Of a stretch of 60,648 nucleotides of DNA, positions 3,250-29,878 are shown one piece after another. The DNA comes from a virus (taxonomy: Duplodnaviria; Caudoviricetes): the IMG/VR virus record IMGVR_UViG_3300032266_000396, positions 1-60,648 of that record. One strand, written 5' to 3'. Positions within the stretch are counted from its first letter, which is position 1. Every line of letters starts with the position of its first letter. Position numbers and translations under genes: made by a program. The notes under the pieces are model-generated. The model searched no databases and was not told the origin of the DNA. It saw only the letters and a list, made by a program, of their open reading frames with translations.

Positions 3250-5540
3250 TTTATTAATTGACTTGTTGAACCATCATTAGAATACCTTGCGAAGTTAATA
3301 CTTATTTTTGAATTTTTTTTCTCAGGTGTATATAAGTGCTTTTGATTAGCCATTATAGCTAATCCTGAACTAATGGATGCATCAAATTTATTTCTATCGT
3401 CTATATCAAATTTAGCCCAATCTTCAAGAGTTCTAGTAAAAGGCATAGTACCCATATCTCCGCCATCTCTATAATCTCCTGTAAAATCTATTCCAATGTA
3501 TTTTTCTATATAAGACTCAATTGCCGATGCGTGAGATTGTTTAACATCTTCTGAAGAGTTAGGTATTCCTCCAAGTTCACGCTCTGTTTTTGTTAGTTTA
3601 TTGTATTGTTTATCAGGTCTATTCAAACAGTAATTCCTGTAACCTCTATTTTTAAAATGATAAAGCAAACGAGGTTTATTATTTTCAATTAGAATTGGCA
3701 TACCATAAAACACACAAGCCATAAGAACTTCCTCAAAAAATATCTCGGCAGTTTGTGGTCTAGCAACATACTCTAAAAAAAACTCATTTACAGGAGCCTC
3801 ATCCATATGAAATTTAGTAAGTCCGTGTAAAGCTCCATTAGAACCTCTACCTCCAACTACTGCAGATATATCATAACTATCGCACCCAAATGAGCCAATA
3901 TGTTCATTGCCGGGGTATTTCATTCCATTTTTTAAATGCACATTATTTTGAAGATATTTTGCAGGAGTCCAACTAACTTTAAACCTTCCTCTCGAATCAG
4001 GAGTAAATATAACTTTACTATCGTTCTCTCCATCTCTCCAATGAAAAAAACCTCTAGTTATAAAATGTTCTTTTATAAGGCTATCGTTGTAATCAATCTG
4101 TTGATATATTTTTGTAAGATTAAACAAAGACTGTTTACTCTCATCTCTAAATGCGTGTGATTCAGTTCTTGGAAACTGACGATAGAACTCATTTAAAGCA
4201 TCGGCATCATTTTTAAGAGAGTCAACCTCAGCTTGCCAATAATCTACAGCTCCATTTTTTATCATCATACCATCAACTCCCATAACAGGTTCCTCAGGCT
4301 TATAGAAAACAGGCATACCATATCTATCAATGAATCCCTCCATATTCCATTCCATAGGAATAAACAAAGCATACAATCCGCTTTTTGTTTGACCATTAGC
4401 ATTGCGACTTGCAACCGCTGAATCTTCAAACATATCTTTGTAATTCTGACCTCCTTTAGATAAAGCATTTGAGGTAGAACCCATCATACACTTTCCAATA
4501 ATTTTAGAACCTAATCTAAGACAAGTTTTAGTTACTCGCCAATTCTCTTTAATGTTGTTCGGCTTAGTCCATTTACCTGACTCATCGTGAGCTAAGAATA
4601 ATAACTTTTCTCCATCATAGGAGTTATCTTCTGTGTTTTTCCAATCTATTGATGTATCTAAACCTTCTATTATTTCATTTTCGGTTTCATACATATTTTT
4701 CTTAGTAATCTTAGTTGCAGGAACACGGAAAGCTAATTCTGTTTTTGGCTTGTCCATACCATCCATAATAGGTTTGAAGAAAAACGGAAGCCTGCTATTT
4801 ATCGGAACCACTTTATCAGTGAACATCTTCTTAGCATCAGAACCTGTCTTAGATAAAATTCCAATCCTTGAATCACGAGCAAGAGTACCAACATTTACAC
4901 ATTCTGATGAAGACATAAACGAGAATCCTGAACGCCTAATTTTTAAGTATATCATACCAAAACTTCTTGAGTCAGCTCTACAGGCTTCCCAAAAAATCCA
5001 ATAGATTCTATTTGCTTCACGAAAATCAGGATAGCCAACATCAATACTTGACCATTGAAGATACATATAGTGAGAACCTGTTATATAAGTTGGAGTTCCG
5101 TTATTCATAAACCACACACCATTCTCTCTGCAATCAAATTCATTTTCAATGTAATCAACCCATCTGTTCTTAAAGTCAGATGGCATTTCGTTCCATTGGA
5201 ATATTGATTGTATTCTTGAGAGTTGTTTTGGAAGAGGTTCTCTTTCCCAATACTGTTCAGATTTTGTAGAGTGTCTTTGAAGACACTTTTTTGGAACCGG
5301 AGGCAACGCAATATAAAGACCGGCTATTTTTACAACATCTCCTATCTCTCCTGTTTTAGAAATTATTATAACATCATATTGGTCATTATAGCCATATAGC
5401 CAAGACTTATTGCCATTCTTTTTAGTAATAGAATGGGCAGGTATGTAATCTTTGACTACGGTGTATAAACTATTTAGACCTTCTTTCTGCAAACCCTTGT
5501 TTTGTATCAGTTTTACTTCCTCCTTTTTCAGACATCTCAA
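3246..5540 (-). CDS. terL: Terminase large subunit (true start may be TTG near 5492)
   Basis: KIRRSGFS Walker A-like motif, LAHDESGK Walker B, GSTSN coupling motif, C-terminal nuclease with GCDSYD and ENNK. Confidence 0.9.
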   Translation of the reverse strand: MRCLKKEEVKLIQNKGLQKEGLNSLYTVVKDYIPAHSITKKNGNKSWLYGYNDQYDVIIISKTGEIGDVVKIAGLYIALPPVPKKCLQRHSTKSEQYWEREPLPKQLSRIQSIFQWNEMPSDFKNRWVDYIENEFDCRENGVWFMNNGTPTYITGSHYMYLQWSSIDVGYPDFREANRIYWIFWEACRADSRSFGMIYLKIRRSGFSFMSSSECVNVGTLARDSRIGILSKTGSDAKKMFTDKVVPINSRLPFFFKPIMDGMDKPKTELAFRVPATKITKKNMYETENEIIEGLDTSIDWKNTEDNSYDGEKLLFLAHDESGKWTKPNNIKENWRVTKTCLRLGSKIIGKCMMGSTSNALSKGGQNYKDMFEDSAVASRNANGQTKSGLYALFIPMEWNMEGFIDRYGMPVFYKPEEPVMGVDGMMIKNGAVDYWQAEVDSLKNDADALNEFYRQFPRTESHAFRDESKQSLFNLTKIYQQIDYNDSLIKEHFITRGFFHWRDGENDSKVIFTPDSRGRFKVSWTPAKYLQNNVHLKNGMKYPGNEHIGSFGCDSYDISAVVGGRGSNGALHGLTKFHMDEAPVNEFFLEYVARPQTAEIFFEEVLMACVFYGMPILIENNKPRLLYHFKNRGYRNYCLNRPDKQYNKLTKTERELGGIPNSSEDVKQSHASAIESYIEKYIGIDFTGDYRDGGDMGTMPFTRTLEDWAKFDIDDRNKFDASISSGLAIMANQKHLYTPEKKNSKISINFARYSNDGSTSQLIK
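5271..5286. repeat. 16-bp palindrome GTGTCTTTGAAGACAC inside terminase
   Basis: Exact reverse-orientation copy; encodes CLQRH. Confidence 0.9.
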
Positions 5541-17590: not shown

Positions 17591-17592
17591 AT

Positions 17593-17620
17593 AAAAAAAC
17601 CCACATTTTAAAAATATGGG
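17593..17620 (-). terminator. Putative intrinsic terminator
   Basis: Imperfect hairpin CCCATATTT/AAATGTGGG followed by a T-run on the minus strand. Confidence 0.5.
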
Positions 17621-17642
17621 CTGTTTCATAAATGGAATTTTA

Positions 17643-17879
17643 CTAATCGCAACCGCAACTGTCTTCTTCCATCATCTCACTCATAGCATTTCCTCTTGCC
17701 ACAATAGAAATCTTTTCAGATACCTTCATAGCTTTCTTCATCTGAGCAAGTTGTGCAATACCCGTTTGTCCATCAGGTCGGTTGTTAATCAACATACCAT
17801 CTTTTACTGTTAAACCCGATTTACCTAAAGAACCATTCTGTTGGTAAATACTGTTTTTTAAATTTAAAGGTTGTTTCAT
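17643..17879 (-). CDS. Hypothetical protein (78 aa from MKQPLNLK)
   Basis: ATG at 17879 preceded by TATCTTTG at 17912-17905. Confidence 0.6.
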   Translation of the reverse strand: MKQPLNLKNSIYQQNGSLGKSGLTVKDGMLINNRPDGQTGIAQLAQMKKAMKVSEKISIVARGNAMSEMMEEDSCGCD

Positions 17880-18053
17880 TTTGCGAAATTTTAAAAGTTC
17901 ATTACAAAGATAGGTTTTTTTTCTTATCAGGTGTATATACTGTTTGGGTAGTATGGCGGTTTGGCGAGCCGACCCCTCGCAGGAAAGTGAGATTTTTTTA
18001 GAGGGGTGGGGGGGCAATTCCGAAAAAAGTCTCAGATTTTTTAGGCTTTTTGC

Positions 18054-18177
18054 TACAGCCTACAGCCTCCCGCTCCCGCTACAGCCTACATCTACAGCGA
18101 CCAATACAGCGACCGATACAGCCCCGCTACAGCGACCAATACAGCCCCGCTACAGCGACCCGCTACGCTCCGCTGTA
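18054..18177 (+). repeat. TACAGC short-repeat array (9 direct copies, 1 inverted)
   Basis: TACAGC at 18054, 18061, 18080, 18093, 18105, 18117, 18128, 18140, 18151; GCTGTA at 18172. Confidence 0.85.
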
Positions 18178-18189
18178 GCCCTCCGCTTT

Positions 18190-18205
18190 GTGTCTTTAAA
18201 GACAC
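18190..18205. repeat. 16-bp palindrome, perfectly symmetric variant GTGTCTTTAAAGACAC
   Basis: One mismatch to the consensus. Confidence 0.85.
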
Positions 18206-18349
18206 TTAAAAAACGTGCGAAGCCCCGCAAACAAAGGGTTCACGCCCTCCGATAAAAAAAACATCTTATAAAGTACAATAATTAGACCCTTGCGAAGCCC
18301 TATAAACATTGAGAAAATGAGATTTTTTTAAAAAAATATCAAAAAAAAC

Positions 18350-18462: not shown

Positions 18463-19101
18463 ATGAGTACACTTTTAACAATCGAGGCGGCTTTTTTAAG
18501 CAATTCACAGGTAGCAACAGCAATCAATTTGCGAGAGATTAGAGGGCTTCAAAGAACTTTAGCCAACGGGCAAAAAAAGAAATTTCAACAGACTTTGGAA
18601 TTATCGGCTAAGGTGGTGGAGGCTGTAAATTGGTTTTCATCCGAAGAGGGCAAAACAGTAACAGCCGAAGCGGGCATTTATTGGACAAACGAGCAAATCG
18701 GAAACAAAGTTTTTGGATGGCAAAAAAGCTACTTTTACAAAGTAGTTAAGGCGGGCAAATTGGAGGCTACAAAGGTGGAGCAATTCAACAGCCTATGCGA
18801 TGAAGCCGAAGCGAGAGGCGAAGAGCCAAACAGAACTTTAGAGGGCTTATTGAAATTTGCCCGCTTAGGTGGTGGAGAGACCAACAGCGAAGCGGGTGGA
18901 GAAGAGAGCGGAGAAGAGGGCGAAGAGAGTGGCGAAATCGGGGTTGAAATTCGCATCCCGACAATTTTCACAATGACTTACAAAGGTGGCAACAAAAACG
19001 TATCAATTCGCATCAATGAGGCGGGTGCAATTGCGACCACAAACAGCACCGAAGAAATTTTGGAGGCTATAGCATTTTTAACTAATTCAATCAATCAATA
19101 A
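18463..19101 (+). CDS. Hypothetical early protein
   Basis: 212 aa, first plus-strand gene; possible HTH (FGWQKSYFYKVVK) and an acidic Gly/Glu linker. Confidence 0.75.
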   Translation: MSTLLTIEAAFLSNSQVATAINLREIRGLQRTLANGQKKKFQQTLELSAKVVEAVNWFSSEEGKTVTAEAGIYWTNEQIGNKVFGWQKSYFYKVVKAGKLEATKVEQFNSLCDEAEARGEEPNRTLEGLLKFARLGGGETNSEAGGEESGEEGEESGEIGVEIRIPTIFTMTYKGGNKNVSIRINEAGAIATTNSTEEILEAIAFLTNSINQ

Positions 19102-19104
19102 TTT

Positions 19105-19120
19105 GTGTCTTCAAAGACAC
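19105..19120. repeat. 16-bp palindrome upstream of the amidoligase gene
   Basis: Exact copy in the intergenic gap. Confidence 0.9.
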
Positions 19121-19138
19121 TTTAAAACCAATTTTTTT

Positions 19139-20059
19139 ATGAGAGCAACAGCACAAACAGGCGTAATTTACACGACTACAGGAGAAACAAGAAGAGGACA
19201 GGTAACAGGCTACCACAGTAAGCCACAGCCAAATTTTTTAAACAAAACAGCCCACAGGGTTGATGTTGCGGGGCTTAAAGCCATAGAGCAAAGAACAGCC
19301 ATCAAATTTGATGGTAGAGAGTACGAGAGCAAATTTACAATCGGGTTCGAGGTTGAAAAAAATCAACTAAGCCGTAATGCTGTGAGAGAGTACGAGCTTT
19401 TTTGCGGGTTCGAGACAGACAGCTCTTGCGGTTACGAGGCGGTTACTCACATTTTACCTTTGCTACCTGCGGGGCAATGGAGAACAAAAGTTTACGATAT
19501 GATGTATAAGGCGGAGCGTATCATAGACGACAGCCACAGCCCAAGCGACAGACGATGTGGCGGACATATCACAATCGGGGTCGATGGCTTGAATGGGGTT
19601 GAAATTAACGACTTAGTTCGAAAAAATGCGGGTATCGTTTTAGCCTTATTTCGCAAGCGTTTAAATAACACTTATTGCGGGTCTAATCGTAGAATGCAAC
19701 CCGAGTATGAGAGCCGATACAATTCAACTACAGGCTACCACTACAGCAACAGCGGATGGCATCACAAGTACCAAACAGCCCTTGTAAAAGGTCGCACTTT
19801 AGAGTTCCGAGTACCGAGCAAATTCGAGAGCGTGAAGCAAATGATGAGACGATACGAGTTGTTTTATGAGTTGGTAAACTACAGCGTAAACAACCCGAGA
19901 GGTACAAGCGAGAAGTTTCTTAAAACCATCAAGCCAATCATCAAGTCGATGTACAACGGAGACGACAGCAAGACAGAGGAAATTTTGAGACTTGCGAGAC
20001 TATTCCAAAAGTTCATCAATAAGGGCGAAATTCATCCCGATATTGCAATGTTCCTTTAG
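19139..20059 (+). CDS. Putative amidoligase (COOH-NH2 ligase fold)
   Basis: TIGFEVE, ETDSS, YEAV, CGGHI, KYQ and TLEFR motifs; ATG at 19139. Confidence 0.75.
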   Translation: MRATAQTGVIYTTTGETRRGQVTGYHSKPQPNFLNKTAHRVDVAGLKAIEQRTAIKFDGREYESKFTIGFEVEKNQLSRNAVREYELFCGFETDSSCGYEAVTHILPLLPAGQWRTKVYDMMYKAERIIDDSHSPSDRRCGGHITIGVDGLNGVEINDLVRKNAGIVLALFRKRLNNTYCGSNRRMQPEYESRYNSTTGYHYSNSGWHHKYQTALVKGRTLEFRVPSKFESVKQMMRRYELFYELVNYSVNNPRGTSEKFLKTIKPIIKSMYNGDDSKTEEILRLARLFQKFINKGEIHPDIAMFL

Positions 20060-20067
20060 CAAGCAAA

Positions 20068-20085
20068 GGGGCGGGAAACCGCCCC
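20068..20085 (+). promoter_or_regulatory. GC-rich GAAA-tetraloop hairpin abutting hammerhead 1
   Basis: GGGGCGG-GAAA-CCGCCCC with no U-tract. Confidence 0.75.
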
Positions 20086-20136
20086 GCTGTATGCGGATGA
20101 GTGTCCGCACTGATGAGCCCAAAAGGGCGAAACAGC
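20086..20136 (+). ncRNA. Hammerhead ribozyme type III (HHR1); predicted cleavage after 20091
   Basis: GCUG-UA^-UGCGGA-UGAGUG-UCCGCA-CUGAUGA-GCCC-AAAA-GGGC-GAAA-CAGC: full core and three perfect stems. Confidence 0.93.
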
Positions 20137-20155
20137 AACCTAAAATTTTTGAGTT

Positions 20156-20347
20156 ATGAAATTAGAAATTTGTTTAAAATCGTTTGCCTTAGCTGTAGTT
20201 TATTTGTCCTTAGCTGTAGCCCTTACAAGCGGGAAAGTTCAGGAGTTCATCAAATTCAATTCGGTAGATGCGGAGATGTTCGCCTTTATCCTTAGCAGTG
20301 GGATGGGTATTGCTTGCTTAGTTGCTTCACTAAAACTAAAACGATGA
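20156..20347 (+). CDS. Small two-TM membrane protein flanked by HHR1 and HHR2
   Basis: 63 aa with two hydrophobic segments. Confidence 0.7.
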   Translation: MKLEICLKSFALAVVYLSLAVALTSGKVQEFIKFNSVDAEMFAFILSSGMGIACLVASLKLKR

Positions 20348-20383
20348 TAGTGCGAGAGGCGGGCAAATTTTAAAGCGGGTGGA

Positions 20384-20399
20384 GTGTCTTCAAAGACAC
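20384..20399. repeat. 16-bp palindrome abutting HHR2
   Basis: Exact copy. Confidence 0.9.
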
Positions 20400-20400
20400 C

Positions 20401-20449
20401 CCGTACACCGATGAGTGTCGGTGCTGATGAGTTCAAAAGAACGAAACGG
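20401..20449 (+). ncRNA. Hammerhead ribozyme type III (HHR2); predicted cleavage after 20405
   Basis: CCG-UA^-CACCGA-UGAGUG-UCGGUG-CUGAUGA-GUUC-AAAA-GAAC-GAAA-CGG. Confidence 0.92.
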
Positions 20450-20467
20450 AAACCTAATCTAATCAAG

Positions 20468-20614
20468 ATGAACAAACAAGACAAGGCGAAAGCCAAAGAG
20501 CAACACCGTAGAGCGACAGCTTTTTATGAGTGGTTACAAAAAATGGGTAATGTTTATATGGCAGACACCCGCAGAATGGATAGAGCAATTTTAATCTTGA
20601 TTGAAAATGTGTAG
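20468..20614 (+). CDS. Small hypothetical protein (48 aa)
   Basis: ATG 18 nt after HHR2: MNKQDKAKAKEQHRRATAFYEWLQKMG. Confidence 0.6.
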   Translation: MNKQDKAKAKEQHRRATAFYEWLQKMGNVYMADTRRMDRAILILIENV

Positions 20615-20849
20615 CGTGGAGCAGATTCAGGAGGCAATACTTCGGGATGGGGTAGCCTTCATAAATGTGTGGTCGCAAGATTGCGATGGAGTTCAGGCAC
20701 AATACCACAAAGAGTTTCAATCGGTGGAGGAGTTTTTAGCGTGGGAGGTGAATTTTTACGAGTGGGCAGAGGGTCGCCAAGGCTATAGCCTAACAGACAA
20801 AGACAACCTCGATGAGGCAGTTACGTGGGGTGGATGGGGCGATTACTAA
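20601..20849 (+). CDS. Acidic hypothetical protein
   Basis: WSQDCDG...YEWAEG; ORF track. Confidence 0.65.
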   Translation: MKMCSVEQIQEAILRDGVAFINVWSQDCDGVQAQYHKEFQSVEEFLAWEVNFYEWAEGRQGYSLTDKDNLDEAVTWGGWGDY

Positions 20850-20900
20850 GCCCCGCCAAGCCCCATAAACAAAGGGATTTTAAAAATAATTGACATTTTA

Positions 20901-20932
20901 TTTGGTAGTGTCGAAATATCGTTCTACCTTTG
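20901..20932 (+). promoter_or_regulatory. Early promoter TTTG-N20-TACCTTTG
   Basis: Full Bacteroidota sigma-A consensus. Confidence 0.8.
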
Positions 20933-20963
20933 TCGAAATTTAGTTCAACAAATCAATTAATCA

Positions 20964-20979
20964 GTGTCTTCAAAGACAC
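20964..20979. repeat. 16-bp palindrome downstream of a promoter
   Basis: Exact copy. Confidence 0.9.
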
Positions 20980-20994
20980 AAAAAACCAAAACAA

Positions 20995-21555
20995 ATGAGA
21001 GTTACAACAGAAAAAATTTGCAGAGCTTTTGAAAGCAGAAGAGCGTTGACCTTAGGGAACAGCAAAACAGATGGAAACAGCCTTTGGCTATTCGGGAATG
21101 AAATTGCCCAATGGCGTGAAGATGGAATTTGGATTACCAATGCGGGGTGGAACAGCAAAACCACCAAGGAAAGGTTGAATGGATTAACGGGAGTTAGCAT
21201 CCAACAAAGAGAGGGCAATTTGTACTTGAATGGGAATTTTTGGCAAGGCGAGTGGACAAGCGTAAATGCTAACAACGGAATAGTATCGACCCCGCAAGAG
21301 GCAGTGCTATTTGACATCACAAGCGAGTGGAAAGGTAAGTACAGCAAGCCAATCTATGCTGTAGCCCACAAGTACACCGAGGCAGACCTATCCGCTTGCG
21401 AGTGCATATTGAATGCAAACGGAATAGTGCACAGAATTATCGAGAGCGACACCGAAGGAGAGTACAAGCCTAATTACTTCTTAGTAGTTCGCCCTCAGGA
21501 TTACGACTTAGCTTTAACTATTATTAATCAAAAAAATGTTACGCAGTGTATTTAG
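20995..21555 (+). CDS. Hypothetical early protein
   Basis: 186 aa; LFGNEIA...ITNAGWNSKTTKERLN motif. Confidence 0.75.
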   Translation: MRVTTEKICRAFESRRALTLGNSKTDGNSLWLFGNEIAQWREDGIWITNAGWNSKTTKERLNGLTGVSIQQREGNLYLNGNFWQGEWTSVNANNGIVSTPQEAVLFDITSEWKGKYSKPIYAVAHKYTEADLSACECILNANGIVHRIIESDTEGEYKPNYFLVVRPQDYDLALTIINQKNVTQCI

Positions 21556-21650
21556 TATTTTTTATCGTGTTAGTTTCAATGCTTGCTTCAAGTTGTGCAA
21601 GTAGATGCAAGCAACAGCGTAGATATTGGAGCAACCACAGATGCGTATAA
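21546..21650 (+). CDS. Possible small lipoprotein (34 aa)
   Basis: GTG start; hydrophobic stretch, LASSC lipobox, basic tail. Confidence 0.35.
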   Translation: MYLVFFIVLVSMLASSCASRCKQQRRYWSNHRCV

Positions 21651-21662
21651 ATTCATAGGGGA

Positions 21663-21678
21663 GTGTCTTCAAAGACAC
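21663..21678. repeat. 16-bp palindrome abutting HHR3 (extended stem GAGTGTCTT/AAGACACTC)
   Basis: Exact copy. Confidence 0.9.
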
Positions 21679-21682
21679 TCTC

Positions 21683-21733
21683 GCTGTCTCGGAGTGAGTG
21701 CTCCGACTGACGAGACCAAGAGGTCGAAACAGC
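21683..21733 (+). ncRNA. Hammerhead ribozyme type III (HHR3); predicted cleavage after 21688
   Basis: GCUG-UC^-UCGGAG-UGAGUG-CUCCGA-CUGACGA-GACC-AAGA-GGUC-GAAA-CAGC. Confidence 0.93.
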
Positions 21734-21752
21734 TAACTTAATACCTAAAAAA

Positions 21753-22061
21753 ATGAGCAGTAATGACATTTTAATTGCAGAATTTATGGGGTTTCAAAAA
21801 ACCTCAATCGGTTGGTTCGACTACAATGAACACCTTTGTTTACCAAACACATCAGACAATACTTTTGATGAGTTGAAATTTCAATCAGATTGGAATTGGA
21901 TGATGCCCGTAATTCAGAAGATATTAGATATATCTTTGAATTTAGATAGTATGGAAATGTACTATAACATAACAGACAGCATACCTAAAATTGACCAAAC
22001 ATACAAAGAGGTGGTAGAATTTATTATTAACTATAACACTACAGAAAATGAGCAGAATTAA
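21753..22061 (+). CDS. Hypothetical protein
   Basis: IAEFMG...LKFQSDWNWMMPVIQKI motif; ATG 19 nt after HHR3. Confidence 0.7.
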   Translation: MSSNDILIAEFMGFQKTSIGWFDYNEHLCLPNTSDNTFDELKFQSDWNWMMPVIQKILDISLNLDSMEMYYNITDSIPKIDQTYKEVVEFIINYNTTENEQN

Positions 22062-22437
22062 AATCACAAAACAAGATGAGTTCGTGTGGTTGTTGGTAAC
22101 AGACAAATCACGTGAGATTTTTATGAGCGGGTTGTTTGAGTTGTACATCCTTTACAAAGATGACAGCGAGACCCTAATCGAGGGCTACTCTCAATTGCTT
22201 GAGGCACTTGAGAACGGAATGGACATCGGCATCGAAGTAGGACATTTGAATGAAGATAAATTAAAAGATGACCAAGTGTTTCTACAGAAGCAAATCGTTG
22301 ACAAGGCGGGCATCAATATCGTATCGTGTGGAATGTGTGCCGAGGTAATTTTGCACAGACTTACGGATGAAACTATACTTTGCCCTCATTGTGAGTTCAA
22401 TTCAGACCCTTGCGATTTTCCCGACCTAAATTATTAA
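22048..22437 (+). CDS. Hypothetical protein with C-terminal zinc ribbon
   Basis: CGMC...CPHC...DPCDFPD. Confidence 0.65.
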   Translation: MSRIKITKQDEFVWLLVTDKSREIFMSGLFELYILYKDDSETLIEGYSQLLEALENGMDIGIEVGHLNEDKLKDDQVFLQKQIVDKAGINIVSCGMCAEVILHRLTDETILCPHCEFNSDPCDFPDLNY

Positions 22438-22441
22438 TCAG

Positions 22442-22597
22442 ATGGAGGCAACTAAATCGTTTAACGTGTATTACGATGGCGTATTCGTACAGACCATAAC
22501 AGCCCACAGCGGGTTCGAGGCAATAGACAAAGTTTTCTATTTGTACATAGAGAAACACCCGACCCTCGAGAGAAAAAAATTCAGTACTAAAAAATAA
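22442..22597 (+). CDS. Small hypothetical protein (51 aa)
   Basis: MEATKSFNVYYDGVFVQTITAHSGFEAIDKVF... Confidence 0.5.
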   Translation: MEATKSFNVYYDGVFVQTITAHSGFEAIDKVFYLYIEKHPTLERKKFSTKK

Positions 22598-22608
22598 TTC
22601 AAAATAAA

Positions 22609-22640
22609 TTTGGCAGTGTCGATTACTTGTCGTACCTTTG
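22609..22640 (+). promoter_or_regulatory. Early promoter TTTG-N20-TACCTTTG
   Basis: Full consensus; near-copy of the promoter at 20901. Confidence 0.8.
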
Positions 22641-22669
22641 TCCAATATTAGTTCATTAATCAGGATTCT

Positions 22670-22685
22670 GTGTCTTCAAAGACAC
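22670..22685. repeat. 16-bp palindrome downstream of a promoter
   Basis: Exact copy. Confidence 0.9.
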
Positions 22686-22707
22686 TATCCACAAATCAAA
22701 TCAAGTT

Positions 22708-23832
22708 ATGTGTGTTATCATTATCAAACAAAAAGGTTATCAAGTGTCTAAAGAAATTGCTCAAACATCCGCAAGGATTAACCCTCACGGATTAGGCATC
22801 GTGTGGCTCGACACATTCGAGGTTACTTACCACAAGTCAGCAGAATATAAATTGCTTGACACAGACCGCCCATTTATTGCTCATTTCAGATATGCTACTG
22901 TTGGGGCTATAGGCAGACAAAACACCCACCCATTTCAATGTGGCAATAACAAAAACGAGTACCTAATGATGAACGGCACAATCAAGGGGCTTGGCAATAT
23001 GAAGCAAAGCGATTCAAAAGTATTGGCGATTAAACTTGGAGACATACCACGCCCTCAGTGGAAGTTGGAGTTGGCTCAATACGATTGCCGATTCGTTACC
23101 ATCAATACCTACAGCAAATCGTTTCAGATTTACAACCGAGAGGATTGGATTCAGAAAGATGGCGTTTGGTACAGCAAGGAGAATGTACTTGAAGACAACT
23201 ATGTTGCAGTGTATGGCACACTAAAGAAAGGCTATTCAAACTATTGGCACTACCTATCAGGAAGCAATTTTGTAGGCAGTGGCACGACCACAGACAAGTA
23301 CCCGCTTGTAGTTAGCGGGCTACCTTACCTCATCGAAAACAAGGGCTTAGGACATAACGTGAATGTAGATGTGTTTAAGGTTACGGATTCAAAGCTAAAG
23401 AGTTTAGACCAACTTGAGGGGCATCCGAGATGGTATTGCAGAAAGCAAATCAATATCACAATCAAGGGCAAGCAAGTCCTTTGTTGGATTTACTTTAACC
23501 TCAAGGAGGTTGCAGATAACAAAGTATTCCACAAGTCCTACGTTCAGGCTAAGCCAAAGTATCAGAGTTTTGGAAACTACAAAAGTTTTAAAAGTTTCGG
23601 CACAGCATCGTACCCAAAAAAGTATGAGACCATACCCGCAAAAGTACAGCCACAGAAAATGTTTCAGGATTGGTTTTCAGATGTGGATGATACACCAGAG
23701 TTCGATGTGCAGAACGAAACCCCGATGTGTGTCGCTTGCTACAACGACTTAGTGTTTGATGGGTTCAATAACTACCATTGCAGTAGTTGTAACACGTGGC
23801 ACTCAGAGGCAGATGTATTGAGAAAATTTTAG
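22708..23832 (+). CDS. Class II glutamine amidotransferase + gamma-glutamylcyclotransferase (AIG2-like) + zinc-ribbon fusion
   Basis: N-terminal MC, NPHGLG, HFRYAT, NTHPF, NGTI, SDS; then VAVYGTLKKG and LDQLEGHPRWY; CVAC/CSSC. Confidence 0.85.
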   Translation: MCVIIIKQKGYQVSKEIAQTSARINPHGLGIVWLDTFEVTYHKSAEYKLLDTDRPFIAHFRYATVGAIGRQNTHPFQCGNNKNEYLMMNGTIKGLGNMKQSDSKVLAIKLGDIPRPQWKLELAQYDCRFVTINTYSKSFQIYNREDWIQKDGVWYSKENVLEDNYVAVYGTLKKGYSNYWHYLSGSNFVGSGTTTDKYPLVVSGLPYLIENKGLGHNVNVDVFKVTDSKLKSLDQLEGHPRWYCRKQINITIKGKQVLCWIYFNLKEVADNKVFHKSYVQAKPKYQSFGNYKSFKSFGTASYPKKYETIPAKVQPQKMFQDWFSDVDDTPEFDVQNETPMCVACYNDLVFDGFNNYHCSSCNTWHSEADVLRKF

Positions 23833-23843
23833 TACCTTAGGGA

Positions 23844-23859
23844 GTGTCTTCAAAGACAC
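23844..23859. repeat. 16-bp palindrome abutting HHR4
   Basis: Exact copy with extended stem. Confidence 0.9.
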
Positions 23860-23861
23860 TC

Positions 23862-23912
23862 TCCGTATCGAGATGAGTGTCTCGGCTGAAGATTCCAAAA
23901 GGATGAAACGGA
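23862..23912 (+). ncRNA. Hammerhead ribozyme type III (HHR4); predicted cleavage after 23867
   Basis: UCCG-UA^-UCGAGA-UGAGUG-UCUCGG-CUGAAGA-UUCC-AAAA-GGAU-GAAA-CGGA; U-U mismatch at the base of stem II. Confidence 0.85.
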
Positions 23913-23930
23913 AACTAAAATCAAAAGATT

Positions 23931-24212
23931 ATGAAAATCTATTTAAAATTTGACCACAGCAAAAAAGATTCCCTCGAGGCTATTGGTTGTGAGCACAATA
24001 AGAGAGAAGTTAATGACAGAGTATTTGAAGTCATCAAGTGGTACAGCGAAGATGATAGTTTGAACAAGAGGAGCCAACTATCCGAGTTGCTTCACAAAAA
24101 CCTCGAGTACGAGGAAATTTTATTCCTTGCCACTGAGTCCGTAGAGGAGAATATGGGAAGAATGATGATTGAAAAAATAAAAGATGATTTAAGAGACTTT
24201 TTAAATTTATAA
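23931..24212 (+). CDS. Hypothetical protein
   Basis: 93 aa; ATG 18 nt after HHR4. Confidence 0.7.
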   Translation: MKIYLKFDHSKKDSLEAIGCEHNKREVNDRVFEVIKWYSEDDSLNKRSQLSELLHKNLEYEEILFLATESVEENMGRMMIEKIKDDLRDFLNL

Positions 24213-24215
24213 ACT

Positions 24216-24440
24216 ATGCAAGTATTTAGAGTTAACACCACAGCGTACAAGGAGGAAGACTTTTACCTCCTTACGGAACTTACCGAACAAGATATTGTAG
24301 AGGTAGTAATGCCAATCGTAAATGCAGAGCGAGATGGCTATGAAGAGTATGACAATGAGTTGCTTTTAGATGCACTCAAAAAGCGTTACCCGAGAAAGAA
24401 AATTGACTTATACTCGGAGTTTGAACTAATCACGATTTAA
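24216..24440 (+). CDS. Hypothetical acidic protein
   Basis: ORF track, 74 aa. Confidence 0.65.
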   Translation: MQVFRVNTTAYKEEDFYLLTELTEQDIVEVVMPIVNAERDGYEEYDNELLLDALKKRYPRKKIDLYSEFELITI

Positions 24441-24441
24441 T

Positions 24442-24582
24442 AGGGTGGCACTCGGAAATCCTTACTTGTCGGTAATGTAGGCGGTTGCAATGCTAATGGT
24501 TAATTTGGTTGCCACCTTGCATCACTTGATGCACTCATAAAACTGAAATTGCAATAAGACTGACAGCTTGGAAAGACAAGCA
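24442..24582 (+). ncRNA. Candidate structured RNA of unknown class
   Basis: Stem AGGGUGGCA/UGCCACCUU, hairpins UGCAUC/GAUGCA and GCUUG-GAAAGA-CAAGC; no convincing ORF. Confidence 0.35.
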
Positions 24583-24585
24583 AAT

Positions 24586-24687
24586 GGGCAAGTGGCGAAA
24601 TGGTAAACGCAGGTATGGAGTAATTAACCATATTGAACTTACTCTCTTGGCGAGAGTGTTATGCAGGTTCGACCCCTGCCTTGCTCA
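24586..24687 (+). tRNA. tRNA-like RNA (class II, Leu-like body) with a non-canonical anticodon arm
   Basis: Acceptor GGGCAAG/CUUGCUC+A; D arm GCG-AAAUGGUAAA-CGC; T arm GCAGG-UUCGACC-CCUGC; anticodon arm 7 bp with a 9-nt loop; long variable arm. Confidence 0.7.
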
Positions 24688-24710
24688 CTAACTTTTAAAT
24701 TTAATTAAAA

Positions 24711-25007
24711 ATGGATGCAAATCAAATCAATGACATCGAGGTAAAAGACTTCGATGTAGTCAGCAGAGACTTCGATGCGGTAATCAGAAGACTTGACATC
24801 GAGAACGCAAAAGAATTATTAAAAAGAGAGGGCTACTTCGTGGACAATCTTTGGCAGACTTGTGATGTTACTATGAACCACGAGTGCACAGAAGAACAGG
24901 CACAGACCATTCTTAACAAAGCATTGACCAATGATGCTACCTATCAACAAATTTGGGAGGCTATCAGTTACGAAGCAGAGAGTATGAACCTAAAACGTAG
25001 AGACTAA
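24711..25007 (+). CDS. Hypothetical protein
   Basis: ORF track; GYFVDNLW. Confidence 0.65.
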   Translation: MDANQINDIEVKDFDVVSRDFDAVIRRLDIENAKELLKREGYFVDNLWQTCDVTMNHECTEEQAQTILNKALTNDATYQQIWEAISYEAESMNLKRRD

Positions 25008-25195
25008 TGTGTACAAATCTTAAACCAATTACAGAGAGACTAACTATTCAGCCCGTACAAAATGGGTTTGTAGTTTACCTAAATGACCACTATGCTCAAG
25101 GCACAGCAAGACCTATTCCATTCGTTTTTGAAACGATGGATAACTTATTAGAATTTGTAAAACTTAAATTTGAAGAAGATGGAAATAAAAATTGA
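25007..25195 (+). CDS. Hypothetical protein
   Basis: ORF track; coupled to its neighbours. Confidence 0.55.
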   Translation: MCTNLKPITERLTIQPVQNGFVVYLNDHYAQGTARPIPFVFETMDNLLEFVKLKFEEDGNKN

Positions 25196-25577
25196 GACAA
25201 TAGTACCGAGAGAGGTACTTGAGAATGTTTGTGTTACCGCCCTTGAGGGCGGTAGCAATTATTGGTACTACCTATCAGAGGGGGCTGTAAAGCTAATCAG
25301 GAAAGCAGTTCCAAAGAATGAAGACCCTTACCTAAGTACAGCAATACTCAAGGCGATACTTGACCACGATGTTGATGTGGCAATCAGCGATGCAGAAGAT
25401 GAGGATGAGGTGCTTGGTTACATAAGCAAGAAAACTATTCAGGAACGCATACAGAAGCTGTCTCAGGATGATGGTTCAAAGTGGGCGTTGGAAAAGGAAA
25501 TGAGAGGCGAAGGCGATGCAGATAGCAGTGATGTAGTTTTTCAATACCTTGCGATGGGGGAGGTCGTGTTCGGATAA
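25170..25577 (+). CDS. Hypothetical protein
   Basis: TALEGGSNYW...DADSSDVVFQ...GEVVFG. Confidence 0.7.
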   Translation: MKKMEIKIETIVPREVLENVCVTALEGGSNYWYYLSEGAVKLIRKAVPKNEDPYLSTAILKAILDHDVDVAISDAEDEDEVLGYISKKTIQERIQKLSQDDGSKWALEKEMRGEGDADSSDVVFQYLAMGEVVFG

Positions 25578-25999
25578 TGAACAGCGGATGCTTCAAGAAA
25601 GGAAATAAGCCTTGGAATGCGGGAGTTAAGGGAATACACCTTAATCCCGCAACCGAGTTCAAGAAAGGCGAGAGGGTTGGTAAAGAACACTATAGTTGGA
25701 AAGGTGGCGTTCAATTAATTAAGAACGATTGTGCGTATCTTTACGAGGGAATAAACAAGAGAGTTCGCAGACCAAAAAAAGTGTACGAGGATGCTAACGG
25801 AGAAGTTCCTAAGGGGTGGATAATCTACCATTTAGATGGAGACAAAGACAATGACCATTTGGACAATCTAATAGCAATCCCGAGAGCAGTCCTTGTAAGG
25901 ATAAATTCAGGTAGAATGAATGCAAATTATTATGAAATCAAAAAAGCAGTAGAAAATTATGAAGAATGTACACATATTACCAACGCCACAACCAAGTAG
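25577..25999 (+). CDS. HNH endonuclease (possibly degenerate)
   Basis: FKKGNKPWN repeat; IYHLDGDKDNDHLDNL. Confidence 0.7.
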   Translation: MNSGCFKKGNKPWNAGVKGIHLNPATEFKKGERVGKEHYSWKGGVQLIKNDCAYLYEGINKRVRRPKKVYEDANGEVPKGWIIYHLDGDKDNDHLDNLIAIPRAVLVRINSGRMNANYYEIKKAVENYEECTHITNATTK

Positions 26000-26747
26000 G
26001 TTAAGAATAACTTCTAAAGGTAAATTAATCTTATCTACAATAGCAGTAGGTAGTAAGGGAGAAAACCAAAACATCTACATCACTAATTCAGAAGAAATTA
26101 AAGAAGGGGATTGGGTTTACTATTTACATAATTCAGGTTTACATAAACCAAGAATAATGGAAGTTATAAAACCTAATTATTCTGATTATAAACCTTACAG
26201 TATTCATTTTAAAAGTGGATTTGGAGTACAAGAAGATTGTAAAAAAATAATCCTAACAACAGACCAAGACTTAATCAAAGATGGTGTACAAGCTATTGAT
26301 GATGAGTTTTTAGAATATTTTGTAAGTGTTCCATTTGGAGAAATTAAGGAAGTTGAGATTACAGAAGTAGCCGATTTAGATTTGTATTATAAAAATGGAA
26401 TTGGAGGTCAAAAACATAAAATCATCATTCCAAGTGAACAACCTAAAACATTCAAAGAATTGTTTGCCAACACAGGTATAGAACCAACAACAGATGAAAA
26501 TGGTAATGTTCATTATAACTTTAAAGCTACTATAAAAGAAGAAACACTTGAAGAATCAAATGAAACAACTGCTATTAGATTTTTAGAGTGGTACAGACTA
26601 AAAAGAGTTATCTATCAATTCACTTGTTACCATATTCCAAATGTTAGTGATAAGAATTGGCAAGAAACTGTATTCTTAGGTGAGAATAGTTACTTAAATT
26701 CACATCAATTATTTGAAATCTTTAAAAAAGAAAACTATGAAAAATAA
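25959..26747 (+). CDS. Modular hypothetical protein
   Basis: NIYITNSEEIKEGDW...CKKIILTTDQDLIKDGVQAIDDEFLE; AT-rich. Confidence 0.65.
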   Translation: MKNVHILPTPQPSRLRITSKGKLILSTIAVGSKGENQNIYITNSEEIKEGDWVYYLHNSGLHKPRIMEVIKPNYSDYKPYSIHFKSGFGVQEDCKKIILTTDQDLIKDGVQAIDDEFLEYFVSVPFGEIKEVEITEVADLDLYYKNGIGGQKHKIIIPSEQPKTFKELFANTGIEPTTDENGNVHYNFKATIKEETLEESNETTAIRFLEWYRLKRVIYQFTCYHIPNVSDKNWQETVFLGENSYLNSHQLFEIFKKENYEK

Positions 26748-26985: not shown

Positions 26986-26987
26986 AT

Positions 26988-29559: not shown

Positions 29560-29841
29560 ATGGGAGATACAATAGACAGCTTTGATGAATTAACAGATTT
29601 TAGAGTTGGAGAAGATGATAAATATCTTGTCGAATATATATTAGCCGACAATGGAGGTTTTAACCACAGATGTTCGCCTTTTTTAATGCCTGTAGGAACA
29701 GTATTTGAACACAATTATGGAACATACAAAGTTATTTCTATTAATAGAAGAATAAAACATATTGTTGTTCATTGTGAATGGATTGAAAATAAAACACCAA
29801 TGTTTGATGTTTTATTTCAAATGATAAATCAATTTAATTAG
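29560..29841 (+). CDS. Hypothetical protein
   Basis: ORF track; AT-rich. Confidence 0.55.
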   Translation: MGDTIDSFDELTDFRVGEDDKYLVEYILADNGGFNHRCSPFLMPVGTVFEHNYGTYKVISINRRIKHIVVHCEWIENKTPMFDVLFQMINQFN

Positions 29842-29878
29842 TGTCTTCAAAGACACGAAACCGTGTTTTAAAAAACAC
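29841..29878. repeat. 16-bp palindrome (29841-29856) plus degenerate copy GTGTTTTAAAAAACAC (29863-29878)
   Basis: Exact and degenerate copies in tandem upstream of ssb. Confidence 0.85.

What the first reader, a model, noticed from the sequence alone, without database searches (positions are those of the whole stretch)
20060..23931. Stereotyped cassette: stop codon - hairpin - ribozyme - A-rich start region - ATG
Seen: every ribozyme is preceded within 0-4 nt by a hairpin lacking a U-tract (GGGGCGG-GAAA-CCGCCCC once, the GTGTCTTCAAAGACAC palindrome three times). Each is followed 18-19 nt later by an ATG (20156, 20468, 21753, 23931). Inference: cleavage leaves the upstream mRNA with a protective 3' hairpin and the downstream mRNA with a 5'-OH, structured end and a uniform leader. 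This would be a natural counterpart of synthetic ribozyme insulators such as RiboJ. Replacement of the palindrome by an unrelated hairpin at HHR1 suggests RNA structure matters at that position.
Basis: partly seen in the sequence, partly recalled or inferred. Interest (0 to 1): 0.8.

Follow-up and report, generated by a model that had tools for sequence, protein, structure and literature searches.

The report
Hairpin–hammerhead punctuation between phage genes
Four self-cutting hammerhead RNAs sit between early genes of a 60-kb phage, each directly behind a stable hairpin and about 19 bases ahead of the next start codon, a layout that recurs in many related phages and probably cuts long messages into separately protected pieces.

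Summary
The window is a complete 60,648-bp phage genome with exactly four type III hammerheads, at 20086-20136, 20401-20449, 21683-21733 and 23863-23911. Each abuts an upstream hairpin (gap 0-1 nt) and lies 18-19 nt before an ATG.

The layout is not peculiar to this phage. Of 164 distinct hammerhead cassettes from viral contigs, 136 have a stable hairpin ending within 6 nt upstream. An ORF starts a median of 22 nt downstream, behind an A-rich leader. Behind orthologues of one conserved gene, 36 of 41 relatives carry a hammerhead. Its hairpin is the palindrome type in 23 and an unrelated sequence in 13, so structure matters there, not sequence.

- The 16-nt palindrome is a genome-wide repeat with 12 copies, 9 of them without a ribozyme. 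In other phages it forms ordinary terminators.
- The 18-19 nt spacing is not conserved in relatives (range 8-60 nt).
- RiboJ has its hairpin downstream of the ribozyme, not upstream.

Best reading: co-transcriptional cleavage creates a 3' end at a terminator-like hairpin without stopping the polymerase. Cleavage and any stability effects are untested; no RNA data were available. Clustered phage hammerheads are already known, so this is a new variant of a known kind.

The parts
20068..20085 (+). Hairpin 1: GC-rich, 7 bp, GAAA loop, no T-run. It starts 8 nt after the stop at 20057-59 and abuts HHR1.
   Evidence: (-16.1 kcal/mol). A compensatory G-C to A-U change is seen in relative L096.
20086..20136 (+). 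HHR1, a type III hammerhead. Predicted cleavage between 20091 and 20092 (after GCUGUA).
   Evidence: Rfam RF00008 46.1 bits, E 5e-8; own model 78.7 bits; covariation.
20137..20155 (+). 19-nt A/U-rich leader before ATG 20156 (63-aa ORF, 20156-20347).
20384..20399 (+). Palindrome core hairpin before HHR2. No flanking extension; 1-nt gap to the ribozyme.
   Evidence: -5.8 kcal/mol.
20401..20449 (+). HHR2, a type III hammerhead. Predicted cleavage between 20405 and 20406. An 18-nt leader follows, then ATG 20468.
   Evidence: Own model 74.2 bits. Rfam gives only a partial match, 19.6 bits. Stem I changes are compensatory against L096.
21659..21682 (+). Extended palindrome hairpin before HHR3 (core 21663-21678 plus 4 flanking pairs, one of them G.U).
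   Evidence: (-13.7 kcal/mol).
21683..21733 (+). HHR3, a type III hammerhead. Predicted cleavage between 21688 and 21689. A 19-nt leader follows, then ATG 21753.
   Evidence: Rfam 41.8 bits; own model 72.2 bits; stems I and II compensatory against L096.
23841..23862 (+). Extended palindrome hairpin before HHR4 (core 23844-23859).
   Evidence: (-10.1 kcal/mol).
23863..23911 (+). HHR4, a type III hammerhead variant with core CUGAAGA and U opposite U at positions 10.1/11.1. Predicted cleavage between 23867 and 23868. A 19-nt leader follows, then ATG 23931.
   Evidence: Own model 76.1 bits; no Rfam match. It is 89-91.5% identical over 47 nt to a hammerhead of Pseudomonas Bruynoghevirus phages. The same U/U variant occurs in 29 of 164 cassettes.
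19105..19120 (+). Bare palindrome between genes: 3 nt after the stop at 19099-19101 and 18 nt before ATG 19139. No ribozyme.
   Evidence: Two of 21 relatives have a hammerhead at this junction.
20964..20979 (+). Bare palindrome in a 5' UTR, 15 nt before ATG 20995 and downstream of the promoter-like block at 20901-20932.
22670..22685 (+). Bare palindrome in a 5' UTR, 22 nt before ATG 22708 (GGACT-domain protein) and downstream of the promoter-like block at 22609-22640.
   Evidence: Conserved in relative L153.
29841..29856 (+). Bare intergenic palindrome directly after the ORF 29560-29841.
5271..5286 (-). Bare intergenic palindrome on the minus strand, co-oriented with the minus-strand genes.

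Best explanation
The region is a run of intercistronic 'punctuation marks' in the early, plus-strand transcription unit of a roughly 60-kb phage. The host is probably in the Bacteroidota.

Each mark has four parts in order: the stop codon of the upstream gene, a stable RNA hairpin without a U-tract, a type III hammerhead that begins 0-1 nt after the hairpin, and an 18-19-nt unstructured A/U-rich leader ending at the next ATG.

Proposed mechanism:
1. Once the polymerase has transcribed the 3' strand of stem III, the hammerhead cuts itself 5-6 nt after the hairpin.
2. The upstream RNA then ends in hairpin + 5-6 nt + 2',3'-cyclic phosphate. This is the kind of 3' end an intrinsic terminator leaves, but transcription continues.
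3. The short stem III (4-5 bp) lets the two products separate.
4. The downstream RNA starts with a 5'-OH whose first base is paired in stem I. Stem II and a free leader follow, suited to start-codon selection without a Shine-Dalgarno sequence.

What is shown: the anatomy, structural conservation with covariation, recurrence of the cassette in relatives, interchangeability of hairpin sequences, and use of the same hairpin core with a U-tract as a terminator in other phages.

What is inferred: that cleavage occurs in vivo, that the hairpin protects the upstream 3' end, and that the products differ in stability or translation.
For: Ribozymes:
- The core CUGANGA...GAAA is present with H17 = A, A, C, A.
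- There are three helices with 95.9% of cells paired. 11 of 15 pairs change on both sides, and 0 of 500 shuffles reach this.
- Exactly four matches at 72-79 bits in 60.6 kb.
- Changes in stems I and II are compensatory against a relative with 87-92% protein identity.

Cassette generality:
- My descriptor found 179 hammerheads, 164 of them distinct, in the loci from two viral-contig scans.
- 136 of 164 have a hairpin of at least 5 bp and at most -5 kcal/mol ending within 6 nt upstream. The controls give 104 of 492 random windows and 45 of 164 shuffles. Mean energy of the 40 nt upstream is -13.8 against -5.0 kcal/mol. The gap is 0 nt in 111 and 1 nt in 19.
- In the subset not selected for the palindrome (n = 142): 114 have the hairpin, 130 have an ATG-ORF within 80 nt (median 22 nt), and 136 have an upstream ORF stop within 150 nt (median 32 nt). 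Leaders are 47.5% A and 9.3% G, against a background of 29.8% and 19.7%.

RNA-level structure:
- The sense strand folds better than the antisense in 104 cases against 59 (p = 6e-9), and 130 of 1405 pairs are G.U.
- The flank pair at positions 5-24 is paired in 47 of 54, against a shuffled mean of 25 and a maximum of 38.

Order and terminator likeness:
- The hairpin lies upstream of the ribozyme in 136 of 164 cassettes, but a hairpin sits in the leader of only 14 of 151.
- 23 of 76 intergenic ribozyme-free palindrome copies carry at least 3 extra stem pairs plus a T-tract, making them canonical terminators.
- 19 of 27 ribozyme-linked copies carry at least 3 extra pairs, and none of the 27 has a T-tract.
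- Of the 53 bare, non-terminator copies, only 8 are extended. This count is derived by subtraction from the output.

Orthologous junctions switch between hairpin alone, hairpin + hammerhead and hairpin + T-tract.

Literature (passages read): clustered hammerheads that flank genes in prophages cleave in vitro, and one set cleaves in E. coli (PMC3088659).
Against: - No RNA run holds this sequence, so cleavage and product fates are unobserved.
- Stable structure is also common in ribozyme-free gaps of 25-220 nt in the same loci: 74% of 423 are at or below -8 kcal/mol, against 94% of 72. The hairpin may therefore be general punctuation rather than part of a ribozyme device.
- The hairpin before HHR2 is only the weak core (-5.8 kcal/mol).
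- 28 of 164 cassettes fail the hairpin criterion.
- A 5'-OH is not always protective. From memory, not from any call: the glmS ribozyme product in Bacillus subtilis is degraded by RNase J1.
- The cassettes are not phylogenetically independent; 42 loci share one orthologous gene.
Confidence: 0.55

Rival explanations
1. The hairpin is generic intercistronic punctuation in these phages, and the hammerhead is an optional, possibly self-spreading, insert that lands between a pre-existing hairpin and the next leader. The two do not work as a unit.
For: - 9 of 12 palindromes in the window have no ribozyme.
- 74% of 423 ribozyme-free gaps are strongly structured.
- Ribozyme presence toggles at orthologous junctions while the hairpin stays: 2 of 21, 14 of 29, 6 of 12 and 36 of 41.
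- Relative MW202828.1 has a variant palindrome at the same junctions and no hammerhead in the 12.3 kb examined.
- Within the window, HHR2 and HHR4 share one stem III sequence and HHR1 and HHR3 share another, which suggests duplication inside the genome.
Against: - The abutment is precise: gap 0-1 nt in 130 of 164.
- Ribozyme-linked palindromes carry extra flanking pairs (mean 3.7 bp, 19 of 27 with at least 3) that bare copies mostly lack.
- The hammerhead behind the g19139 orthologue is kept in 36 of 41 relatives down to about 40% protein identity. That points to selection rather than drift.
Confidence: 0.2
2. The hairpin mainly helps the ribozyme fold. It shields the hammerhead from the upstream coding sequence and stacks coaxially on the short stem III. 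Protecting the upstream RNA is not its main role.
For: - The hairpin abuts stem III with a gap of 0 nt in 111 of 164.
- Stem III is shorter when a hairpin is present: 5.07 against 5.86 bp, p = 0.0013.
- Any stable sequence serves, with 64 distinct non-core hairpins.
Against: - In nearest-neighbour thermodynamics, the probability of the native hammerhead helices does not change when the hairpin is deleted or shuffled. It is higher with the hairpin in 66 and lower in 69 of 135. That model ignores coaxial stacking, kinetics and ribosomes.
- The stem III difference is under 1 bp, and the hairpin-less set may contain false ribozymes.
Confidence: 0.12
3. The 16-nt palindrome is a sequence-specific binding site for a phage or host protein, either a DNA operator or an RNA-binding or RNA-cutting factor. 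Its position next to three ribozymes is incidental.
For: - The exact 16-mer is conserved across many viral contigs, while flanks and other hairpins vary freely.
- The interior is often self-complementary to the centre, which an RNA loop does not need.
- Copies lie inside genes: 121 of 224 contexts.
- Two copies sit just downstream of promoter-like blocks that themselves contain a GTGTC half-site.
- It is not a multi-copy host repeat. Genome hits are mostly single and scattered over many phyla.
Against: - Intergenic copies are co-oriented with transcription in 46 against 15, and ribozyme-linked ones in 18 against 0.
- Flanking pairs covary with G.U pairs on the sense strand.
- At the HHR1 junction the palindrome is replaced by unrelated hairpins in 13 of 36 relatives.
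- Ribozyme-free, U-tract-free hairpins are not preferentially of the core type (odds ratio 0.97).
Confidence: 0.1
4. Cleavage is used to switch genes off or to re-join RNA. Either the 5'-OH marks the downstream message for decay, or segments flanked by two ribozymes are ligated or circularised by an RtcB-type ligase.
For: - The gene at 20156-20347 is flanked by HHR1 and HHR2, so its RNA would carry a 5'-OH and a 2',3'-cyclic phosphate.
- Perreault et al. raise splicing or circles as a possibility (PMC3088659, passage read).
Against: - The same paper reports that neither product was detected (passage read).
- 151 of 164 cassettes keep an intact A-rich leader and an ORF start right after the ribozyme. 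This argues that the downstream RNA is meant to be translated.
Confidence: 0.05

Closest known systems
Clustered hammerhead ribozymes flanking genes in prophages and phages (Perreault et al. 2011, PMC3088659; passages read)
   Same: Several hammerheads lie within a few kb between small phage genes. That paper proposed that long phage transcripts are processed into single-gene mRNAs, and it showed cleavage in vitro and in E. coli for other examples.
   Different: In the passages found, the paper does not mention an adjacent upstream hairpin ('terminator' occurs 0 times; 'hairpin' only for ribozyme loops). The stop-hairpin-ribozyme-leader-ATG order, its frequency and the exchange with terminators are added here. 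Its supplements could not be seen.
RiboJ synthetic insulator (75-nt sTRSV hammerhead plus 23-nt hairpin; described in PMC8794103, passages read)
   Same: A hammerhead in a 5' UTR cuts off whatever lies upstream and leaves a defined, structured 5' end before the coding sequence.
   Different: RiboJ's hairpin is downstream of the ribozyme and stays with the insulated gene. Here the hairpin is upstream and leaves with the 5' product. Only 14 of 151 natural leaders have a hairpin after the ribozyme. RiboJ removes promoter leaders; here the cut separates cistrons.
Intrinsic (Rho-independent) terminators
   Same: A GC-rich hairpin follows a stop codon at close range. The same palindrome core with GGGG/CCCC-type extensions plus a T-tract forms canonical terminators in 23 of 76 intergenic copies in other viral contigs.
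   Different: No U-tract follows the hairpin in the window's four cassettes. A ribozyme follows instead, so a 3' end would be made by cleavage while transcription goes on.
RNase III processing sites between phage T7 early genes
   Same: Intercistronic cuts in a polycistronic early phage transcript leave a stem-loop at the 3' end of the upstream message.
   Different: T7 relies on a host protein enzyme and long double-stranded stems. Here the stems are 6-11 bp and the cut would be made by the RNA itself, giving 5'-OH and cyclic phosphate ends.
Hammerhead of Pseudomonas Bruynoghevirus phages (PaP3 group; PaP4 record KC294142.1 fetched)
   Same: HHR4 is 89-91.5% identical over 47 nt to it and shares the U/U pair at positions 10.1/11.1. 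The PaP3 ribozyme is listed among active core variants in the legend of Figure S6 of PMC3088659; only the legend was read.
   Different: In PaP4 the ribozyme ends directly at the ATG, and an AAGGA lies in loop/stem II. In the window, 19 nt of A-rich leader intervene.

Membership tests
Hammerhead ribozyme, type III (Rfam RF00008) | Conserved core: C3 U4 G5 A6 N7 G8 A9 ... G12 A13 A14, the A15.1-U16.1 pair, and H17 not G | tested here: met
   All four carry CUGANGA and GAAA in register, a U-A closing pair in stem III, and H17 = A, A, C, A.
Hammerhead ribozyme, type III (Rfam RF00008) | Three helices around the core, with stems I and II closed by loops and stem III open (type III topology) | tested here: met
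   95.9% of cells are paired; 11 of 15 pairs show changes on both sides; 0 of 500 shuffles reach this; slid controls give 30-52% paired.
Hammerhead ribozyme, type III (Rfam RF00008) | G10.1-C11.1 pair next to the core | tested here: inconclusive
   Met in HHR1-3. HHR4 has U opposite U, as do 29 of 164 cassettes and the PaP4 hammerhead. A PaP3 ribozyme is reported active, but the figure showing its variation was not visible.
Hammerhead ribozyme, type III (Rfam RF00008) | Score at or above Rfam's curated gathering cut-off (48.5 bits) | tested here: not met
   Scores are 46.1, 41.8 and 19.6 bits, with no match for HHR4. This is a curated threshold, not a structural feature. In 12 related loci only 1 hammerhead passes it, although the dedicated model finds, for example, 4 in L096.
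Hammerhead ribozyme, type III (Rfam RF00008) | Self-cleavage at the H17 site | not testable with these tools
   No RNA run holds the sequence. A bench assay is needed.
Intrinsic terminator | Stable GC-rich hairpin | tested here: met
   -16.1, -13.7 and -10.1 kcal/mol for hairpins 1, 3 and 4. Hairpin 2 is weak at -5.8 kcal/mol.
Intrinsic terminator | U-tract directly after the hairpin | tested here: not met
   Stem III of the ribozyme follows directly. None of the 27 ribozyme-linked palindromes has at least 6 T in the next 9 nt. The plus-strand hairpins are absent from the terminator scan.
RiboJ-type ribozyme insulator | Hammerhead that removes upstream RNA, followed by a hairpin retained on the insulated mRNA | tested here: not met
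   The ribozyme part is met. The hairpin is upstream in all four window cassettes, and the leaders are unstructured. The downstream-hairpin order is seen in 14 of 151 relatives' leaders.
RNase III processing site | Long double-stranded stem of about two helical turns | tested here: not met
   Stems are 6-11 bp. The length requirement is recalled, not taken from any call.

The most novel reading that the evidence does not exclude
A large group of phages that probably infect Bacteroidota uses one hairpin module as a universal mark for the end of a message. It is coupled to one of several devices that make the 3' end: a U-tract for termination, a type III hammerhead for cleavage with read-through, or possibly a tRNA-like element. 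On this reading the hammerhead is a natural 'terminator that does not terminate'. It gives each early cistron its own hairpin-capped 3' end and its own 5'-OH, base-paired 5' end, so message stability and translation are set gene by gene. The invariant 16-nt core would additionally be read by a protein.
Probability: 0.3. Interest if true: 0.75.

Novelty: new variant of a known kind. Interest (0 to 1): 0.6.

Why it matters
What hammerheads in bacteria and phages are for remains open. A 2019 review says only that processing of polycistronic transcripts 'has been suggested' and that more work is needed (PMC6765202, passage read).

This cassette gives that question a concrete, testable form. It has a fixed order of parts and precise predicted ends. 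It also offers natural controls at the same junction in relatives: hairpin alone, hairpin + U-tract, and hairpin + ribozyme.

It would also supply natural, compact parts for separating genes in operons in Bacteroidota, where Shine-Dalgarno-based design rules do not apply.

Finally, Rfam's cut-off misses most of this phage hammerhead subfamily.

Tried and rejected
1. RNA evidence. The look-up of sequencing runs listed no RNA holder. One DNA run holds 99% of the sampled words and may be the source sample. Read laying was not used, because DNA contigs cannot show RNA ends.

2. Folding-insulator test. Deleting or shuffling the hairpin did not change the modelled probability of the native hammerhead helices. 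It was higher with the hairpin in 66 and lower in 69 of 135, p = 0.26 and 0.14. This gives no support for the idea, but the model is limited.

3. The idea that ribozyme-free hairpins must be of the conserved core type, so that the core would be a protein-read processing signal equivalent to the ribozyme. Rejected. In ribozyme-free gaps there are 271 non-core and 22 core hairpins without a T-tract, against 24 and 2 with one (odds ratio 0.97, p = 1). Some 'core, no T' rows are hammerheads that my descriptor missed.

4. The idea that the palindrome is a host genome repeat. Multi-copy hits occur only on a 56-kb contig of a Cytophagales MAG (5 copies) and a contig of a Flavobacteriaceae MAG (2 copies), and these are probably phage DNA.

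5. The idea that the palindrome is a hairpin promoter for a virion RNA polymerase. PHROG and Pfam searches of ten large proteins and ten cassette-region proteins found no RNA polymerase. The 2831-aa protein has no match at all. Not pursued.

6. Bacteroidota-type promoter motif TTTG-N17-21-TANNTTTG. It gives 6 matches against 3.3 expected, and 11 of 100 shuffles reach 6, so it is not enriched overall. The two blocks at 20901-20932 and 22609-22640 are called promoter-like only because they are homologous to each other and sit in gaps. The motif itself is recalled.

7. Near-identity search of 6 kb against the phage collection found no match. Rfam at its gathering threshold found nothing in the window. 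ARAGORN found no tRNA in the window.

8. Literature. Seven searches turned up no paper describing a hairpin directly upstream of phage hammerheads. Jimenez et al. 2011 (JBC) is cited by other papers but is not held in the library, and subscription papers are missing. 'Not found' is therefore not proof of absence. Supplements were not opened because they are closed. Figures S1-S7 and Dataset S1 of PMC3088659 may show the PaP3 variant and the flanking sequence.

Full report
WHAT THE WINDOW IS. The window is a complete virus record of 60,648 bp with direct terminal repeats. A simple ORF map shows minus-strand structural and packaging genes at 814-17879 and 38459-60605. PHROG searches identify portal, large terminase and virion proteins. 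A plus-strand block at 18463-38458 encodes small proteins of unknown function followed by replication genes: primase, helicase, and a protein with a GGACT domain. The finding lies in the first 5.5 kb of that plus-strand block. The only related annotated phage is an uncultured podovirus of 60,850 bp, MW202828.1. The host is not known. A/U-rich leaders without Shine-Dalgarno sequences point to Bacteroidota. So do two promoter-like blocks of the recalled Bacteroidota type, and multi-copy palindrome hits on contigs binned with Cytophagales and Flavobacteriaceae. This host assignment is inference.

All four elements carry the hammerhead core in register, with stems I and II closed by loops and stem III open, which is the type III topology. 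The cleavage site therefore lies near the 5' end of each element: after GCUGUA (20091), CCGUA (20405), GCUGUC (21688) and CCGUA (23867).

An alignment of the four with a Pseudomonas phage hammerhead has 95.9% of helix cells paired. Both sides change at 11 of 15 pairs, 0 of 500 shuffles reach this, and slid controls give 30-52% paired. A covariance model built from that alignment finds only these four in both strands of the window (72-79 bits, next best 13.4 bits, filters off). Because the model was built from these same sequences, independent support matters:
- Rfam's Hammerhead_3 model gives 46.1 bits for HHR1 and 41.8 bits for HHR3, just below its 48.5-bit cut-off. HHR2 gets a partial 19.6 bits and HHR4 gets nothing.
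- HHR4 matches a hammerhead of Pseudomonas Bruynoghevirus phages at 89-91.5% identity over 47 nt, in 65 records.
- Against the closest relative (L096, 87-92% protein identity), changes in stem I of HHR2 and HHR3, stem II of HHR3 and hairpin 1 are all compensatory.

Hairpins end 0, 1, 0 and 0 nt before stem III. Leaders are 19, 18, 19 and 19 nt. After cleavage the 5' UTRs would be 64, 62, 64 and 63 nt.

THE CASSETTE IS WIDESPREAD. I scanned the viral contig collection twice, once for the palindrome and once for a degenerate hammerhead pattern that does not involve the hairpin. The model found 8, 112 and 91 matches in the three batches of loci. My own descriptor found 179 hammerheads, 164 of them distinct, counting the four of the window and the PaP4 one.
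- 136 of 164 have a hairpin of at least 5 bp and at most -5 kcal/mol ending within 6 nt of the ribozyme. Controls give 104 of 492 random windows from the same loci and 45 of 164 shuffles. The gap is 0 nt in 111 and 1 nt in 19.
- In the 142 cassettes from loci not chosen for the palindrome, 114 have the hairpin and only 47 have the GTGTC...GACAC core.
- 130 of these 142 have an ATG-ORF within 80 nt (median 22, interquartile range 20-28, range 8-60).
- 136 of the 142 have an upstream ORF stop within 150 nt, a median of 32 nt before the ribozyme.
- Leaders are 47.5% A and 9.3% G.

The order and the short, unstructured A-rich leader are conserved. The exact 18-19 nt is not.

STRUCTURE, NOT SEQUENCE, AT THE HAIRPIN POSITION. 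Using conserved neighbouring genes as anchors, I compared orthologous junctions.
- Behind orthologues of the 306-aa gene (the HHR1 position), 36 of 41 distinct relatives have a hammerhead by my descriptor. A further one, L183, is visibly a variant that the descriptor missed.
- 35 of those 36 spacers fold at -5 kcal/mol or better. 23 carry the palindrome-type core and 13 carry unrelated hairpins.
- Among all cassettes there are 64 distinct non-core hairpin sequences, typically GGGG...CCCC stems with UUCG- or GNRA-like loops.
- The sense strand folds better than the antisense (104 against 59, p = 6e-9), and 130 of 1405 pairs are G.U.
- The pairs flanking the palindrome core covary. Positions 5-24 are paired in 47 of 54, with five pair types, against a shuffled mean of 25 and a maximum of 38.

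These results show an RNA-level hairpin on the transcribed strand.

THE PALINDROME IS NOT A RIBOZYME ACCESSORY. It occurs at 12 places in the window.
- Eight are intergenic copies, all co-oriented with transcription: 5271 on the minus strand, and 19105, 20384, 20964, 21663, 22670, 23844 and 29841 on the plus strand.
- One is a symmetric variant at 18190, in the divergent control region beside tandem repeats.
- Three lie inside genes, at 16592, 35574 and 43435.

Only three copies adjoin ribozymes. Across 224 distinct contexts in viral contigs, 121 are inside open frames, 76 are intergenic without a ribozyme and 27 are intergenic with one. Intergenic ribozyme-free copies are co-oriented with genes in 46 against 15.

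Of the 76 ribozyme-free intergenic copies, 23 have at least 3 extra stem pairs followed by a T-tract, which makes them ordinary intrinsic terminators. Of the 27 ribozyme-linked copies, 19 have at least 3 extra pairs and none has a T-tract. Copies inside genes extend by only about 1 pair, close to chance. So the hairpin is lengthened where a 3' end is made, whether by termination or by cleavage. It stays short where no 3' end is made.

At the junction behind the GGACT-domain gene, relatives show several forms. There are 14 of 29 with palindrome + hammerhead. L196 and L207 have palindrome + T-tract. L081 and L204 have a palindrome followed by a tRNA-like T-arm and acceptor sequence, which ARAGORN did not call as a tRNA at that spot. 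MW202828.1 and L028 have the palindrome alone.

MECHANISM. Hammerhead cleavage gives a 2',3'-cyclic phosphate and a 5'-OH; this is established chemistry, restated in PMC8782182 (passage read). Given the anatomy, the upstream RNA keeps the hairpin plus a 5-6-nt tail. The downstream RNA begins with its first base paired in stem I, followed by stem II and then a free A-rich leader.

I read this as making a 3' end at a terminator-like hairpin without stopping the polymerase, combined with a defined 5' end for the next cistron. The asymmetry of the layout favours a role for the hairpin on the upstream product: it lies upstream in 136 of 164, but a hairpin sits in only 14 of 151 leaders. Few leaders are shorter than about 16 nt (19 of 151). 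That fits the need to keep the folded ribozyme outside the region an initiating ribosome occupies, though this is inference.

LIMITS AND COUNTER-EVIDENCE.
- No RNA data exist for this phage in the runs searched.
- Ribozyme-free gaps in these phages are also mostly structured: 74% of 423 against 94% of 72. Hairpins are general punctuation, and the ribozyme looks like an optional module added 3' of them.
- A thermodynamic test gave no support for a folding-insulator role.
- The hairpin before HHR2 is weak.
- A 5'-OH can destabilise RNA in organisms with RNase J (recalled glmS precedent).
- The cassettes are related by descent, so the counts overstate independent support.

COMPARISON WITH WHAT IS KNOWN. 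Clustered hammerheads flanking phage genes, and the proposal that they cut long transcripts into gene-length mRNAs, were published in 2011 (PMC3088659, passages read). A 2019 review still calls the role only suggested (PMC6765202, passage read). Neither source, in the passages found, mentions an abutting upstream hairpin, and seven literature searches found no description of one. RiboJ is a useful functional analogy, but its hairpin is on the other side of the ribozyme (PMC8794103).

VERDICT. The feature is real and conserved. The ribozyme class and its phage context are known. The fixed hairpin-ribozyme-leader architecture and its interchange with terminators appear to be new. I rate it a new variant of a known kind, interest 0.6.

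Noticed in passing
window 23864-23910; L002 (KC294142.1) 238-284: HHR4 is 89-91.5% identical over 47 nt to a hammerhead at the left end of 65 Pseudomonas Bruynoghevirus genomes, although the phages are otherwise unrelated. Both have U opposite U at positions 10.1/11.1, as do 29 of 164 cassettes. In PaP4 the ribozyme ends directly at the ATG of gene 1, and an AAGGA lies in loop/stem II, so the ribosome-binding site may be embedded in the ribozyme.
   Followed up: partly
window 16592-16607, 35574-35589, 43435-43450: Exact copies of the 16-nt palindrome lie inside genes: the GroEL-like gene, a helicase gene and the 2831-aa gene. In relatives one coding context recurs in many loci with the exact 16-mer despite diverged flanks. 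This hints at selection on the DNA or RNA sequence inside a gene.
   Followed up: partly
window 18053-18205: Tandem repeats with periods of 7, 11-12, 23 and 35 nt (unit TACAGCGACC-like) are followed by a perfectly symmetric palindrome variant (TTTAAA centre) at 18190. They sit in the gap between the divergent minus- and plus-strand gene blocks and may be an origin or control region.
   Followed up: partly
window 20880-20963 and 22598-22669: Two homologous blocks of about 80 nt contain a TTTG-N20-TACCTTTG promoter-like motif (Bacteroidota type, recalled consensus) and a GTGTC half-site. Each is followed by a bare palindrome and a gene start. The second block is conserved in relative L153.
   Followed up: partly
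L081 and L204, junction behind the GGACT-domain gene orthologue: In two relatives the palindrome is followed by a sequence with a tRNA-like T-arm and acceptor end instead of a hammerhead. ARAGORN did not call a tRNA there. It could be an alternative processing signal, for example for RNase P.
   Followed up: partly
L096, L153 and other related loci: Rfam's Hammerhead_3 gathering cut-off reports only 1 hammerhead in 12 related loci (135 kb), and none in L096, where the dedicated model finds 4. Standard annotation therefore largely misses this phage subfamily.
   Followed up: yes
window 21525-21650: A small open frame with a lipoprotein-like signal (…LASSC…) ends 8 nt before hairpin 3 but has no upstream ATG in this phage. 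Relative L096 has an ATG-started version.
   Followed up: no
L001 (MW202828.1) junctions behind the g19139 and GGACT-gene orthologues: This relative uses a different perfect palindrome (same GTGTC/GACAC arms, GTTAAC centre) at the same junctions. No hammerhead was found in the 12.3 kb examined.
   Followed up: partly
window ~18222-18240 and ~20852-20876: A short motif (AAGCCCC-N-AAACAAAGGG-like) recurs just upstream of promoter-like regions. Its function is unknown.
   Followed up: no
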